A model generated the notes under the pieces. That model saw only the letters and a program-made list of their open reading frames with translations, was not told where the DNA came from and did no database searches. Below, in pieces: positions 46,953-49,949 of a stretch of DNA of 64,000 nt. Made by a program: the position numbers and the translations under genes. Position 1 is the first letter of the stretch; the number at the start of each line of letters is the position of its first letter. Origin of the DNA: a virus; the IMG/VR virus record IMGVR_UViG_3300045988_175328, positions 160,001 to 224,000 of that record; one strand, given 5' to 3'.

Positions 46953-47408
46953 ATGAACTTAGTAACTAAAGAAATAATCTTAACTCGACTCGATAAAAAA
47001 GGTGCACTAAGTGCACTTGAATCAACTATTGAAAAATTTCATGAAGAATATCATAATAATAAATATAATTTTAAAGATGTCGATAATCATATTGAAGAAT
47101 TTAAATTATATAATGGAGAGTTATTCTATCGCTCTACTAACGATATTAATATTGACTTAAATACATTAAAAAATAGTAACGATGAGTATGTAATTAATGA
47201 TTTAATGCGATTAAAATCTTCAGTAAATCTAGCTCTTCTATTAAAAGAAAAGAATTTTAATATGATTCCAGTACCAGAAGATCTTTTAGATAATCTATAT
47301 CTTAATATAAAACTATTCTTAAAAACAATTGAACGAATCGAGTTAGCATTAGAAGCTCTCAATCGAGCCGATACTATTCTTAATGGAGAGGATGGCTTCC
47401 GAGTCTAA
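46953..47408 (+). CDS. hypothetical protein
   Basis: ORF with SD AAAGGAG. Confidence 0.55.
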   Translation: MNLVTKEIILTRLDKKGALSALESTIEKFHEEYHNNKYNFKDVDNHIEEFKLYNGELFYRSTNDINIDLNTLKNSNDEYVINDLMRLKSSVNLALLLKEKNFNMIPVPEDLLDNLYLNIKLFLKTIERIELALEALNRADTILNGEDGFRV

Positions 47409-47630
47409 TGAAATACCGTCAAATTGTTAAAACGGTAGCACATGCTTGTATTAACTATAAATTAAGTCTTCCTATAGACTTTAAATTAATTTTAACAAGA
47501 ACTTCGTGCATGTTGTATGCTAAAGGAGAGAATGATGCTACATTTAAAGGTCGACTAATTTTATTGAAATTCAGAACTAACACTCGTGATTTTAATCATG
47601 AGATACAGTTTTGGAAATTAGTAAGCCTGT
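47408..47630 (+). CDS. hypothetical protein, exon 1 (interrupted by the IStron)
   Basis: The ORF runs into the intron, and the apparent TAG stop at 47630-47632 spans the predicted 5' splice site. Confidence 0.5.
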
Positions 47631-48127
47631 AGGGAAACTTGCAGGTAGAAATAGCTTTTAGCTATTCAACGAAGAAACTGAATTGCTGGGAACCCCTAAA
47701 GCTCAATTAACTACAATATAGATTTGAAATATAATCAAGTATGAATGTGGCGAAAGCAGAAAAAATAATTGAGATAAGATATGGTTAAACCCTAAGTCTT
47801 AAGATAATGGGCAATCAGCAGCGAAGCTCCGAATAGGAGAACGTTCAACGACTATTCCTCGTGAGGGAAGTACACCGTAAGCGATTGACGGTGGAAGTGG
47901 TGTCGCCTAAGTCGCAATAGCGATATGGATAAGATATAGTCTGTGCTTATGCGAAAGTATAAGATGCGCGTAATGGCGCTGGTTAGGAATAGCGATCCTG
48001 ATTGAACGAGACCTCACAAAACATGGTTCTAAAATGTCCTGTAAAAGTTTTACTGAAAAGTTGTTTTTTAGTAAAAGTATGTTATAATAATCTCGTAATA
48101 TAGTAATTAGAAAGCGAGGTGATAATA

Positions 48128-49378
48128 ATGTATGTAAATATGAAGCAACAGGTAAAACATCTAACAAAAGAAAAATACAATATCCTAAGAGAATTATGTA
48201 GGACTGCTAAGAATTTAAAAAATGAAGCAATTTATAATATTCGACAACATTATTTTCAAGAAAAACAATACTTGAGATATGAGTCGAATTATCATGAACT
48301 AAAGTATTCTGAAAATTATAAGCTTTTAAATTCTAATATGGCACAACAAACTCTCAAGGAAGTTGATACAATGTTTAAATCATTCTTTGCTTTGATTAAA
48401 ATGGCAAAGCAAGGAAAGTACAGTTTTAAGCATATACGATTACCTAAGTATCTGCCTAAAAATGGATATTCAAATTTAATCATTGCACAATTTAAAATTA
48501 AAGATGGTATTTTAACTATTCCAGTTTCTAATGCTTTTAAGGAAAAGCATGATATGAAAATTCAGATCAAAATTCCCAAAGCATTAGAAGGTAAAAAGAT
48601 TAAACAGATTCAAATTATACCTAAATTTAATGCTAGGTTCTTCGAGATTCAATATATATATGAAGTTCAAGAAGAAGATTTAAAATTAGATACCAACAAT
48701 GCACTGGCTATTGATTTGGGAGTTAATAATTTGTGTACTTGCGTTACAAACGCTGGTAGATCTTTTATTATCGACGGAAGGAAGTTAAAATCTGTTAATC
48801 AATTCTTTAACAAGAATTATGCTAAACTACAATCTATTAAAGACAAACAGCGTATCAAAAGACAGACGAAACAACAATATTTAATTTCTCTTAAGAGAAA
48901 GAATAGGGTTAACGATTATATCAATAAAACATGTCGATATATCATAAACTATTGCTTATCTAATAATATCGGAACTTTAGTTATTGGTTATAATCAGTCA
49001 TTTCAATGTAAAACTAATTTAGGTAGGAGAAACAATCAAATTTTTACTCAATTGCCATTTGGTAAGATTCGAGAAAAATTAGAATATTCGTGCAAACGAT
49101 ATGGTATTAATTATATCTTACAAGAAGAATCTTACACTTCTAAAGCTAGTTTTTTTGATAATGATGAGTTACCTATTTATAATGCTGACAATCCACAGGA
49201 ATATGAGTTCAGTGGAAAGCGTGTTAAAAGAGGATTATACCAGACTAAAGATGGTTATCTTTTTAATGCAGATTGTAACGGCGCATTAAATATTCTTCGT
49301 AAAAGTAGCGTTGTAGACCTTAGTGTCTTATACAGTAGGGGCGATCTGGACACGCCTAAAAGAATAAGGATCTTTTAA
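48128..49378 (+). CDS. tnpB: TnpB-like RNA-guided endonuclease (IS200/IS605 OrfB family)
   Basis: The RuvC triad contexts are ALAIDLGVNN, LQEESYTSKASF and FNADCNGALNILRK. The KRVKRGLY variant lacks the CxxC zinc finger. The ATG at 48128 follows GAGGTGA. The gene has its own extended -10 promoter, TGTTATAAT, at about 48081-48089. Confidence 0.85.
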   Translation: MYVNMKQQVKHLTKEKYNILRELCRTAKNLKNEAIYNIRQHYFQEKQYLRYESNYHELKYSENYKLLNSNMAQQTLKEVDTMFKSFFALIKMAKQGKYSFKHIRLPKYLPKNGYSNLIIAQFKIKDGILTIPVSNAFKEKHDMKIQIKIPKALEGKKIKQIQIIPKFNARFFEIQYIYEVQEEDLKLDTNNALAIDLGVNNLCTCVTNAGRSFIIDGRKLKSVNQFFNKNYAKLQSIKDKQRIKRQTKQQYLISLKRKNRVNDYINKTCRYIINYCLSNNIGTLVIGYNQSFQCKTNLGRRNNQIFTQLPFGKIREKLEYSCKRYGINYILQEESYTSKASFFDNDELPIYNADNPQEYEFSGKRVKRGLYQTKDGYLFNADCNGALNILRKSSVVDLSVLYSRGDLDTPKRIRIF

Positions 49379-49449
49379 GATCAAACTTCTTAATAAAATA
49401 ACTTTAAGTTATTTTTAGAACCATGTGATTTTAATCATGTGAGGTTCAG
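49290..49449 (+). ncRNA. candidate omega RNA (reRNA) scaffold overlapping the tnpB 3' end and the intron 3' end
   Basis: The position is inferred by analogy with characterised TnpB systems. Hairpin TGATT-TT-AATCA lies at 49426-49437. The boundaries are not determined. Confidence 0.35.
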
Positions 49450-49592
49450 TGAATCGAGATATTGATCTTAATGAATATAGCGCTTACGACCAAATTGTGT
49501 ATAAAACAGTAGAATCATATTTAATTAAAAATCAGGAGGCATTCTCTAAGTTTAATACATTAGTCGGCACTATTGAATCTGAAGTAGAATAA
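49450..49592 (+). CDS. hypothetical protein, exon 2
   Basis: Joining T at 47630 to TG at 49450-49451 gives a Leu codon and the continuous frame ..KLVSL-L-NRDIDLNEYSAYDQIVYKTVESYLIKNQEAFSKFNTLVGTIESEVE*. Confidence 0.5.
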
Positions 49593-49635
49593 AAAAGATG
49601 ACCCTGTATTTTTAAATTACAGAGTCATCTTTTTA
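49593..49635. terminator. bidirectional intrinsic terminator
   Basis: An A-run, then GATGACCCTGTA 49597-49608 / TACAGAGTCATC 49618-49629, then a T-run. It serves the converging plus-strand gene and the minus-strand HU gene. Confidence 0.75.
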
Positions 49636-49670
49636 GTCTATAGTAACGAGCTGATATTTGTATGTCAGGA

Positions 49671-49949
49671 TTATTTATTTAAAGCTTCTTTTAAAGCTTT
49701 AGCTGGTTTGAAAGCTACAGCTTTTTTTGCAGCGACTTTCATTTTTTCGCCAGTTTGTGGATTACGGCATTCGCGAGCTTTACGTTCACGAGATTCGAAA
49801 ATGCCGAAACCATGTAAGCTAACTTTATCTCCTTTTACAAGAGATGTAGTTACTGTTGCTAATACATCTTCAACTAAAGCTGTAATAGCTTTTAAAGTTA
49901 ATTCAGGATGTTTAGCAGCAACTGCTTTAATTAATTCTTGTTTATTCAT
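49671..49949 (-). CDS. hup: HU-type DNA-binding protein
   Basis: MNKQELIKAVA...GFGIFESRERKARECRNPQTGEKMKVAAKKAVAFKPAKALKEALN is the full HU/IHF signature (GFG.F..R.R.AR.GRNP.TGE). SD AAAGGAG. Confidence 0.9.
   Translation of the reverse strand: MNKQELIKAVAAKHPELTLKAITALVEDVLATVTTSLVKGDKVSLHGFGIFESRERKARECRNPQTGEKMKVAAKKAVAFKPAKALKEALNK

What the first reader, a model, noticed from the sequence alone, without database searches (positions are those of the whole stretch)
47631..49449. IStron-like element in a phage: a group I intron carrying TnpB that splits a small gene, with derivable in-frame splice sites
Seen in sequence: (i) There is a group I core. Exon CCTGT (47626-47630) pairs with GCAGG (47641-47645), putting the obligatory U.G wobble at the 5' splice site. 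A P2 hairpin AATAGC/GCTATT follows. CTGGGAACCCCTAAAGCTC..ACTACAATATAG resembles the T4 td intron P3-P4 region. P7 is GACTA 47850-47854 / TAGTC 47937-47941, inside the hallmark AAGATATAGTC. (ii) A complete TnpB ORF (48128-49378) has D-E-D RuvC contexts and its own TGTTATAAT promoter. It is looped out by two long-range helices, 48022-48031 with 49416-49425 (10 bp) and 48011-48018 with 49438-49445 (8 bp). (iii) Splicing after T47630 and after G49449 fuses the flanking ORFs in frame into a 121-aa product, ..FWKLVSL-L-NRDIDLNEY... Established knowledge: IStrons, which are group I introns fused to IS200/IS605-type elements, were first described in Clostridioides difficile. Recent work shows interplay between splicing and omega RNA production. 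Inference: an active or recently active IStron sits inside a phage gene. This links RNA-guided TnpB homing with self-splicing to limit the cost to the phage.
Basis: partly seen in the sequence, partly recalled or inferred. Interest (0 to 1): 0.8.

Follow-up and report, generated by a model that had tools for sequence, protein, structure and literature searches.

The report
TnpB-carrying IStron splitting a phage gene

Summary
The element is a group A (IS200/IS605-type) IStron at 47565-49449 (1885 nt).

Five uninterrupted 99-aa homologs and their empty-site DNA show that the gene reads ...GRLILL|NRDIDL.... The element lies after TTTAT (47560-47564) and ends in TCAG (49446-49449). The true P1 pairs the TTTAT exon with GUAAG (47621-47625).

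RF00028 scores the core at 55.9 bits, but only when the region is searched alone. A 117-pair structure is 95.8% paired across 14 copies, and 60 pairs show compensatory changes.

TnpB is intact and under purifying selection (dN/dS 0.17). It belongs to a rearranged-RuvC, zinc-finger-less type.

Related ~230-kb phages carry copies at six or more other in-gene sites, always NTTAT|...TCAG|, and precise removal restores the ORF each time. Natural empty alleles exist, one with a perfect TAM and 20-nt target.

Caveats: the window copy has an A.G mismatch in P3, no TnpA was found, and splicing and cleavage are untested. It is a new member of a known kind. Phage IStrons were previously reported only for group B.

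The parts
47408..47564 (+). 5' exon of the interrupted 99-aa gene (codons 1-52 plus the first base of codon 53)
   Evidence: Intact 99-aa homologs P0001-P0005 align up to ...GRLIL(L). Empty-site DNA in L005/L006 matches up to ATTTTAT.
47560..47564 (+). TTTAT: insertion target / TAM and the exon strand of P1. U47564 is the 5' splice-site U (U.G with G47621).
   Evidence: All full copies follow NTTAT. TTTAT is a published group A IStron target (PMC4227781). P1 pairs are counted.
47565..49449 (+). The whole IStron (1885 nt), which is both the intron and the IS element. There is a 4-nt boundary ambiguity: TGAA at 47565-68 equals 49450-53.
47572..47613 (+). P1 extension. Helix P1a is 47572-78/47607-13. 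It encloses the left-end subterminal hairpin 47585-90/47595-600, which lies within the direct-repeat copy 47586-47603.
   Evidence: 18-nt direct repeat with 49425-49442 (D2). The helices covary (helices 2-4).
47621..47625 (+). Internal guide sequence GUAAG, pairing with exon UUUAU
   Evidence: TAM-IGS covariation: TTAT/GTAAG versus TTGAT/GTCAG or GTTAG (col 6-71 UA10 GC2 GU2).
47626..48001 (+). Ribozyme core P2-P9.2, IA2-like with P7.1/P7.2. P2 47626-31/47640-45; P2.1 47650-55/47661-66; P3 47674-80/47898-904 (A47676.G47902 mismatch); P4 47684-89/47815-20; P5 47694-96/47809-11; P6 47821-23/47842-44; P7 47850-54/47937-41; P9 47946-52/47957-63; P9.1 47966-69/47976-79; P9.2 47983-88/47996-48001.
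   Evidence: RF00028 55.9 bits. Structure coordinates. Pair counts.
48011..48034 (+). 5' strands of the two long-range helices that loop out the TnpB cassette: 48011-18 with 49438-45, and 48021-34 with 49413-26
   Evidence: I5. (helices 21-23). The same pairings occur with different sequence in the L001 family.
48061..48122 (+). Internal promoter-like region and RBS for tnpB: TTG-type -35 near 48061-66, -10 TATAAT 48083-88, RBS GAAAGCGAGGTGA 48110-22
   Evidence: Conserved across copies. Not listed by the consensus promoter scan. Inferred, not shown.
48128..49378 (+). tnpB (416 aa). RuvC-I D196, relocated RuvC-II E334 (G287 at the canonical position), RuvC-III D382 in NADCN. No CxxC zinc finger.
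   Evidence: dN/dS 0.17.
49210..49449 (+). Candidate omega-RNA scaffold: conserved multi-hairpin fold overlapping the tnpB 3' end, including the right-end hairpin ~49421-49444. The element ends in TCAG, with omega-G = G49449.
   Evidence: Consensus fold has 60 pairs, 10 compensatory. Synonymous divergence drops at the 3' end. Nucleotide conservation is 0.89-0.94. The extent is inferred.
49450..49592 (+). 3' exon (last two bases of codon 53 through the stop). Its first ~16-20 nt (49450-49469) would be the omega-RNA guide / target.
   Evidence: The guide role is inferred from published TnpB/IStron biology (PMC10690162, PMC13565253).

Best explanation
This is a TnpB-only group A IStron: an IS200/IS605-type insertion sequence whose left part is a group IA2-like ribozyme. 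It is inserted in the sense strand of a 99-aa phage gene.

DNA level. The element has IS200/IS605-type ends: it is inserted 3' of TTTAT, ends in TCAG, and has similar subterminal hairpins about 20 nt inside the left end and about 5-10 nt inside the right end. It encodes no TnpA, so any transposition to new TTAT sites would need a Y1 transposase supplied in trans.

RNA level, host-gene transcript. The TAM/exon UUUAU pairs with GUAAG (47621-25) to form P1 across a 56-nt P1 extension. Two long-range helices bring the 3' end back to the core. The ribozyme would splice at U47564|...G49449| and restore the 99-aa ORF.

RNA level, omega-RNA. From an internal promoter, or by processing, the 3' ~240 nt plus ~16-20 nt of 3' exon would form the omega-RNA. 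TnpB would use it to cut empty TTTAT+target alleles, for example in a co-infecting phage or after excision, so that repair copies the element back in (homing/retention). The right-end RNA can fold either into the intron helices or into its own hairpin, but not both. That is the splicing-versus-guide conflict published for IStrons.

Shown here: boundaries, ribozyme structure, TnpB integrity and selection, multiple insertion sites, and natural empty sites. Inferred: splicing, omega-RNA production, cleavage and homing.
For: - Boundaries: intact 99-aa alleles and empty-site DNA. Ten sibling copies at 6 other sites all show NTTAT|...GGTTCAG|, sit in the sense strand of ORFs, and restore ORFs on exact removal.
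- Ribozyme: RF00028 scores 55.9 bits for the window, 69.2 for sibling L017, and 85-96 for homologs in phage genes with split portal or HEG contexts.
- Structure: 95.8% of cells pair versus 36-42% in slid controls; 60 of 117 pairs are compensatory versus 8-18; 0 of 500 shuffles reach the observed values.
- P1: TAM-IGS covariation.
- Ends: LE/RE 18-nt repeat and a 14-bp perfect long-range helix.
- TnpB: Pfam and NCBIfam hits; invariant D196/E334/D382; mapping onto solved TnpB/Cas12f structures; dN/dS 0.17 with all ORFs intact; more than 120 clusters at 83-93% identity on 225-238-kb contigs.
- 3' RNA: a conserved fold that excludes the intron helices.
- Target: empty allele L055 has TTTAT plus a 20/20 guide match.
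- Literature: group A hallmarks and the splicing/guide conflict.
Against: - The window copy has an A.G mismatch in P3 (A47676.G47902). It is absent from all 13 other copies and shared by all 7 contigs with this insertion. The RF00028 score is 13 bits below a sibling's. Splicing could therefore be impaired.
- No TnpA was found in the window or in any locus (weak test, and only 64 kb of ~227 kb was seen).
- The TnpB type (Gly at the canonical RuvC-II position, relocated Glu, no zinc finger) is predicted to be active, but the census paper (PMC10691335) says it has not been tested.
- No Rfam omega-RNA family matches the 3' end.
- Nothing here shows spliced RNA, omega-RNA or cleavage.
Confidence: 0.85

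Rival explanations
1. One reading: 5' splice site after T47630, with P1 = CCTGT/GCAGG, giving a 121-aa spliced protein.
For: Joining after 47630 and after 49449 is arithmetically in frame. RF00028 aligns its first hairpin to CCTGT...GCAGG.
Against: Five intact homologs are 99 aa and lack exactly the 22 residues KFRTNTRDFNHEIQFWKLVSL. Empty-site DNA joins after ATTTTAT. All siblings have NTTAT at the junction and restore their ORFs only with that boundary. The CCTGT/GCAGG helix lies within the element in every copy and covaries as an internal hairpin (helix 5).
Confidence: 0.02
2. A decaying relic. The element is a correctly delimited IStron, but this copy no longer splices efficiently because of the P3 mismatch. 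The 99-aa gene is then effectively disrupted and dispensable, and only TnpB is maintained.
For: The P3 A.G mismatch is unique to this insertion lineage and fixed in all 7 contigs. The RF00028 score is lower than a sibling's. Ribozyme-less siblings show that the TnpB module persists without a ribozyme. The host gene has no known function.
Against: P3 keeps 6 of 7 pairs. Every other helix, P7 and the J-regions are intact. The element is identical across several metagenomic samples. Both exon parts remain open and about 90% conserved relative to intact alleles.
Confidence: 0.2
3. An ordinary mobile group I intron whose TnpB simply plays the role of a homing endonuclease. The IS200/IS605 ends are vestigial, and spread occurs only by homing between co-infecting phages, not by TnpA transposition.
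For: No copy has a TnpA. Homologous ribozymes in other phages carry classical GIY-YIG endonucleases. The 2026 review proposes homing for TnpB-only IStrons. Empty alleles with a perfect target exist.
Against: At least 7 unrelated insertion sites share only NTTAT. That needs target-independent transposition at some point. The LE/RE hairpins are conserved with compensatory changes (helix 4), which is expected if a Y1 transposase still recognises them.
Confidence: 0.3

Closest known systems
Group A IStrons (CdISt1 of Clostridioides difficile and relatives; Tourasse et al. 2014, PMC4227781)
   Same: 5' IA2-type ribozyme with P7.1/P7.2 and an extended P9. 3' IS200/IS605 module. Insertion after a T-rich pentanucleotide (TTTAT is a listed target). 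3' terminus TCAG. U.G at the 5' splice site within an IGS stem. No target duplication. TnpB-only (ORF B only) variants are common. The ribozyme is 75% identical, and the right end nearly identical, to a CdISt1-like copy in Clostridioides phage ES-S-0173-01.
   Different: The TnpB cassette is unrelated at pairwise level to the one in the CdISt1-like relative. It is a rearranged-RuvC, zinc-finger-less type, and the RAGATH-18-like block is absent. The element resides in, and has multiplied within, a ~227-kb uncultivated phage lineage. Ribozyme-less siblings of the same IS module exist, whereas the 2014 survey found no separate components.
Group B IStrons (BcISt1, C. botulinum CboIStron; Zedaveinyte et al., PMC10690162)
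   Same: Triple function (splicing, transposition, TnpB-omega-RNA homing). Mutually exclusive intron and omega-RNA folds at the 3' end. Previously reported in C. botulinum phages.
   Different: Group B uses an IS607 serine recombinase, inserts after GG (TGGG TAM), ends in CGG, has G-C at the 5' splice site, and uses RAGATH-18-type reRNA. None of these applies to the window element.
HEG-carrying and ORF-less group I introns of Firmicute phages (Twort/K/Sep1-like Staphylococcus phages, SPO1-like phages)
   Same: Homologous ribozyme core: 172 phage records hit, for example inside the annotated two-piece tail-lysin CDS of phiIBB-SEP1, and with an I-TevI-like gene in Enterocloster phages. They interrupt phage protein-coding genes.
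   Different: Those introns carry protein-guided homing endonucleases or no ORF. They lack IS200/IS605 ends and have a compact P1 without the left-end hairpin insert.
Derived / RIIr-5-type TnpB (Altae-Tran et al. 2023, PMC10691335)
   Same: NADxN RuvC-III motif, Gly replacing the canonical RuvC-II Glu, and an alternative conserved Glu.
   Different: Clade assignment is by motif only; no phylogenetic placement was done. The paper does not mention IStrons or group I introns (0 occurrences).

Membership tests
Group I intron (Rfam RF00028) | Covariance-model score at or above the curated gathering score | tested here: met
   55.9 bits versus a gathering score of 50, E 1.3e-13, full model 1-253, when 47555-48045 is searched. 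Larger searches missed it through filters. Positive controls score 85-96 bits.
Group I intron | Conserved P3-P9 core with the P3/P7 pseudoknot, supported by covariation | tested here: met
   117 pairs, 95.8% paired, 60 compensatory, 0 of 500 shuffles reach this; slid controls give 36-42%. P4 and P7 are invariant. The window copy has one A.G mismatch in P3.
Group I intron | 5' exon ends in U paired to G of an internal guide (P1); the intron ends in G | tested here: met
   U47564.G47621 is UG in 14 of 14 copies. G49449 is terminal in 13 of 14 copies (L014 ends in A). TAM-IGS covariation.
Group I intron | Self-splicing activity (GTP-dependent) | not testable with these tools
   No RNA data or biochemistry available.
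Group A IStron | [quoted passage not shown] | tested here: met
   TTTAT|...TCAG| in the window; NTTAT|...TCAG| in all full siblings. Criteria from PMC4227781.
Group A IStron | IA2-class ribozyme at the 5' end fused to an IS200/IS605-family ORF B (TnpB) at the 3' end, with boundaries coinciding | tested here: met
   P7.1/P7.2 and extended P9.0-9.2 are present. TnpB by Pfam/NCBIfam. Precise removal restores the host ORF at 7 sites.
IS200/IS605 insertion sequence | Subterminal hairpins at LE and RE recognised by a Y1 (HUH) TnpA | tested here: inconclusive
   Similar hairpins lie about 20 nt inside LE and about 5-10 nt inside RE. No TnpA was found (weak probe), and no recognition test is possible.
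TnpB RNA-guided nuclease | RuvC D-E-D catalytic triad | tested here: met
   D196, E334 and D382 are invariant in 41 homologs at 33-56% identity. D196 aligns to RuvC-I of solved TnpB. E334 is at a relocated position, with G287 at the canonical site. This matches the rearrangement described in PMC10691335. Activity of this type is untested.
TnpB RNA-guided nuclease | Omega-RNA from the 3' end of the element plus a flanking guide | tested here: inconclusive
   Conserved 3' fold with 10 compensatory pairs and reduced synonymous divergence. No matching Rfam family and no RNA data.
Group B IStron | GG-ending target, CGG 3' end, IS607 serine recombinase / RAGATH-18 reRNA | tested here: not met
   The target is TTTAT and the end is TCAG. 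There is no RAGATH-18 hit in the window.

The most novel reading that the evidence does not exclude
This IStron family is a naturally occurring RNA-guided gene drive in a phage population. TnpB-only IStrons spread between co-infecting ~230-kb phages by omega-RNA-guided cleavage of empty TTAT+target alleles. Filled, susceptible (perfect TAM plus 20/20 target) and synonymously 'immunised' (TAM TTTAC or seed mismatches) alleles coexist. The ribozyme is kept only where an ORF must be restored and is deleted elsewhere. The same intron/ends chassis has also swapped in an unrelated, rearranged-RuvC TnpB with its own un-catalogued omega-RNA.
Probability: 0.3. Interest if true: 0.8.

Novelty: new member of a known kind. 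Interest (0 to 1): 0.55.

Why it matters
IStrons are the only known elements that combine a ribozyme, a transposon and an RNA-guided nuclease in one sequence. A 2026 review (PMC13565253) describes homing by TnpB-only IStrons as plausible but awaiting validation.

A phage lineage offers a natural system to test RNA-guided intron homing directly, by co-infection. This one has many IStron copies at different in-gene sites, natural empty alleles (one a perfect TAM+target match), and ribozyme-less siblings. It could also be used to test the activity of the rearranged-RuvC TnpB type.

There are two practical points. Gene callers split the host gene into 74-aa and 47-aa fragments. And the default Rfam scan misses the intron in a 64-kb search. 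Elements like this are probably under-annotated in phage genomes. Bacillus phage LY2 (split portal gene) and Clostridioides phage ES-S-0173-01 are two more examples.

Tried and rejected
- Whole-window Rfam search at gathering score and a 2.5-kb permissive search found no group I hit. I first took this as evidence against an intron. The positive control and the short-region search showed it was a filter loss.
- Megablast of the locus against GenBank phages found nothing.
- phmmer of TnpB against the PDB found nothing. A profile was needed.
- tblastn with an IS608 TnpA sequence recalled from memory found no TnpA. This is only weak negative evidence.
- I considered the 18-nt direct repeat as a target duplication or co-conversion scar. 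I rejected that in favour of IS200/IS605 LE/RE hairpins, because it lies inside both ends in all copies.
- I considered that the ribozyme-less siblings are all intergenic. This was only partly true: L016 splits a long open frame.
- I looked for a signature of selection or co-conversion around the insertion site in empty alleles. Local identity (0.82-0.95) is no different from the gene-wide level (0.84-0.94), so no claim is made.
- I did not build my own covariance model. The ~400-column model would have exceeded the calibration limit, so I used pair counting instead.
Full report
OBSERVATION. The region 47400-49600 was read directly. The TnpB ORF at 48128-49378 is confirmed: Pfam OrfB_IS605 at E 3.5e-30 plus the Cas12f1-like TNB domain, and NCBIfam guided_TnpB at 197 bits. 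The two flanking ORFs (47408-47632, 74 aa; 49449-49592, 47 aa) have no family hits.

At first this seemed to be met. Rfam found nothing in the whole window at gathering score and no group I hit at E<=10 in 47300-49800. A positive control showed the model itself works: RF00028 scored homologous cores in Bacillus phage LY2 and an Enterocloster phage at 85 and 96 bits. When only 47555-48045 was searched, RF00028 hit 47621-47963 at 55.9 bits (gathering score 50, E 1.3e-13, full model 1-253). The earlier negatives were therefore losses to the speed filters.

BOUNDARIES. It returned five uninterrupted homologs that cover the whole query but are only 99 aa long. In the alignment they read ...KGRLILL|NRDIDL... 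and lack exactly the 22 residues encoded by 47567-47632.

Empty-site DNA from two contigs reads ...CTGATTTTAT|TAAATAGAGAT.... The window reads ...CTAATTTTAT(47564)|TGAAATTCAG... at the 5' junction and ...GAGGTTCAG(49449)|TGAATCGAGAT... at the 3' junction. The element is therefore 47565-49449 (1885 nt), with a 4-nt TGAA ambiguity. It lies after TTTAT and ends in TCAG.

These are the published hallmarks of group A (IS200/IS605-type) IStrons (PMC4227781; PMC13565253). The spliced CDS is 300 nt and encodes 99 aa. Its 5' splice site, its P1 and its 121-aa product are not.

RELATED COPIES. The 5' 400 nt has homologs in 172 GenBank phage records. Examples:
- It lies inside the annotated two-piece tail-lysin CDS of phiIBB-SEP1.
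- It lies next to an I-TevI-type endonuclease in Enterocloster phages.
- It sits between halves of the portal gene, followed by 'transposase' ORFs, in Bacillus phage LY2.
- It sits in a split ORF with a TnpB in Clostridioides phage ES-S-0173-01.

IMG/VR holds 18 loci with TnpBs 61-89% identical to the window's. One 227,762-bp contig carries two of them. Nine of these loci hold full copies, which align end to end with the window's element. With the window, that makes ten ribozyme-bearing copies. All ten sit after NTTAT and end in GGTTCAG. The nine siblings occupy six distinct sites, none of them the window's. All ten are in the sense strand of ORFs, and exact removal restores long reading frames. 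One site lies just before a ClpP-like GxCASMASFLL motif. This validates the corrected splice sites independently and shows that the family has been mobile within this phage lineage.

The window is identical to part of a 227,241-bp ENA contig. PHROGs tail and tail-fibre hits and 'Caudoviricetes' names on homologs support a phage origin. No GenBank phage is close to it.

RIBOZYME STRUCTURE. I built 14 'mini-IStrons' with the TnpB cassette removed. Ten came from the window's family and four from the more distant TTGAT/TCGAT family. I aligned them (A3), mapped a hand-built structure onto the alignment and counted pairs.
- 95.8% of cells form standard pairs, against 36-42% when partners are slid by 1-3 columns.
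- 60 of 117 pairs have changes on both sides, against 8-18 in the slid controls.
- The covariation score is 0.434 against 0.05-0.09, and 0 of 500 shuffles reach the observed values.

P1 is exon UUUAU (47560-64) paired with GUAAG (47621-25). Its central pair is U-A in the TTAT family and G-C or G.U in the TTGAT family, so the TAM covaries with the guide sequence.

Between the 5' splice site and the guide sequence lies a 56-nt P1 extension. It contains helix P1a and a hairpin that is one copy of an 18-nt direct repeat (47586-47603 and 49425-49442). I interpret these two copies as the IS200/IS605 left-end and right-end subterminal hairpins. The geometry I compare them to is from my own knowledge of IS608.

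P3, P5, P6, P7.1, P7.2, P9, P9.1 and P9.2 all covary. P4 and P7 are invariant. The presence of P7.1/P7.2 and an extended P9 fits the IA2 class.

The pair 48021-34/49413-26 is 14 bp and perfect, and it covaries. The pair 48011-15/49441-45 is conserved.

One caveat is specific to the window. P3 reads GAAACUG/UGGUGUC, giving an A47676.G47902 mismatch where all 13 other copies pair. All seven contigs with this insertion share it. A sibling scores 69.2 bits with RF00028 against the window's 55.9.

TnpB. phmmer against the PDB found nothing. I aligned 41 homologs at 33-56% identity, taken from the representative search. D196, G198, G287, E334, S338, R365, R368, G369 and D382 are invariant.

The profile of that alignment matches ISDra2 TnpB (8EXA/8H1J) and several Cas12f structures. 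D196 aligns with the RuvC-I aspartate. G287 lies where canonical enzymes have the RuvC-II glutamate. E334 (QEESYTSK) aligns with DPxYTSQ. RuvC-III reads NADCN, and there is no CxxC zinc finger.

This matches the 'derived' and RIIr-5 descriptions of Altae-Tran et al. (PMC10691335): Glu replaced by Gly, with a compensating alternative glutamate. Such enzymes are predicted to be active but had not been tested experimentally in that paper.

Across 14 copies all ORFs are intact. Median dN/dS is 0.17 at dS ~0.5. More than 120 clusters at 83-93% identity exist, mostly on 225-238-kb contigs.

The TnpB of the closest-ribozyme relative (L001) has no significant pairwise similarity to the window's (E 0.36). 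Yet the ribozymes are 75% identical and the right ends nearly identical. The same intron/ends chassis thus carries unrelated TnpB cassettes, bounded by the long-range helix.

3' RNA. Nucleotide conservation rises to 0.89-0.94 over 49265-49449. Synonymous divergence falls to 0.15 in the last 19 codons, against 0.33-0.54 through most of the gene. The last 240 nt have a consensus fold of 60 pairs, 10 with compensatory changes, and part of it lies inside the coding sequence.

In that fold the right end forms its own hairpin (CAUGUGAU/AUCAUGUG). This hairpin uses the same nucleotides as the intron's long helix and its P9.0-like helix, so the two folds exclude each other. That is the splicing-versus-omega-RNA conflict shown experimentally for other IStrons (PMC10690162; PMC13565253).

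RAGATH-18 is the published reRNA of IS607 TnpBs (PMC11061315). It hits the 3' ends of the LY2 and Clostridioides-phage IStrons but not the window. The window family has a ~70-nt deletion at that position.

A -10 TATAAT (48083-88), a TTG-type -35 and an RBS are conserved upstream of tnpB.

TARGETS. Natural empty alleles differ at the insertion site:
- L055 has TTTAT and a 20/20 match to the would-be guide.
- L056 has one distal mismatch (position 18).
- L005 has mismatches at positions 2 and 6.
- L057 and L058 have TTTAC and further mismatches.

All of these changes are synonymous. Local identity is no different from the gene-wide level, so I draw no conclusion about selection.

WHAT IS MISSING. 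No TnpA was found in the window or in any locus (weak test). Only 64 kb of the ~227-kb genome was available. Splicing, omega-RNA production and cleavage cannot be tested here.

RIBOZYME-LESS SIBLINGS. Four loci carry the same TnpB module and right end but no ribozyme, and their left junctions differ from one another.
- L011/L012 lie two codons before a stop codon. Their left end repeats 10 nt, which restores the last two codons and the stop.
- L014 is intergenic.
- L016 splits an open frame of 375+500 codons, with GAGG of the right end 7 nt before an ATG.

L016 retains the first ~19 nt of the IStron left end, including an orphaned P1a strand. These copies therefore look like independent deletions of the ribozyme rather than ancestors. 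[quoted passage not shown]

VERDICT. It is a new member of a known kind. Notable features are that it is phage-borne (phage IStrons were previously reported only for group B in C. botulinum phages), that it is multi-copy within a ~230-kb phage lineage, that it carries a rearranged-RuvC TnpB, and that filled and empty alleles coexist in nature.

Noticed in passing
L011/L012 (LE near 2870, RE 4327), L014, L016 (LE near 2856, RE 4330): Ribozyme-less siblings of the same TnpB module and right end, each with a different left junction. L011/12 repeat 10 nt (TGGAATTAAA), which restores the last two codons and stop of the upstream gene. L016 splits a 375+500-codon open frame, and GAGG of the right end sits 7 nt before an ATG, so it may allow translational restart.
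   Followed up: partly
L052 (same insertion site as the window): The 5' half of the ribozyme is identical to the window's, including the P3 mismatch. From ~47876 onward, P7.2, P8, P9 and P9.2 and the downstream sequence differ. This suggests recombination between IStron copies.
   Followed up: no
L002 = Bacillus phage vB_BceH_LY2 ON366411.1 111537-115010; L001 = Clostridioides phage ES-S-0173-01 CP067352.1 ~63166-65067: Two GenBank phages carry IStrons that are not annotated as such. In LY2 the portal gene is split by an RF00028 intron, 'transposase' ORFs and a RAGATH-18 RNA. In L001 a split ORF pair (262 + 328 aa) is interrupted by a TTGAT|...TCAG| IStron with a canonical zinc-finger TnpB.
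   Followed up: partly
window 48046-48078: A conserved hairpin (TTTTACTGAAAA / TTTTTAGTAAAA) overlaps the -35 region of the tnpB promoter. Siblings show compensatory changes by eye (e.g. GCTGAAAA/TTTTTAGC). Its function is unknown.
   Followed up: no
whole window (method): The default Rfam gathering scan of 64 kb, and even a 2.5-kb permissive scan, missed a group I intron that scores 55.9 bits when searched in a 491-nt slice. Negative Rfam results on long, AT-rich phage sequence should not be trusted for this family.
   Followed up: yes
window 49671-49949 (-): An HU-type DNA-binding protein gene (Pfam Bac_DNA_binding 1.7e-31) lies convergent with, and immediately downstream of, the interrupted gene. 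It is conserved in the same position in relatives. A perfect bidirectional terminator-like hairpin sits at ~49584-49641.
   Followed up: no
window 47565-47568 versus 49450-49453: The window's left end starts TGAA, identical to the first 4 nt of the 3' exon, whereas siblings start TAAG/TAAA. L011 shows a 10-nt version of the same phenomenon. The left-end start may be prone to conversion towards the 3' flank.
   Followed up: no
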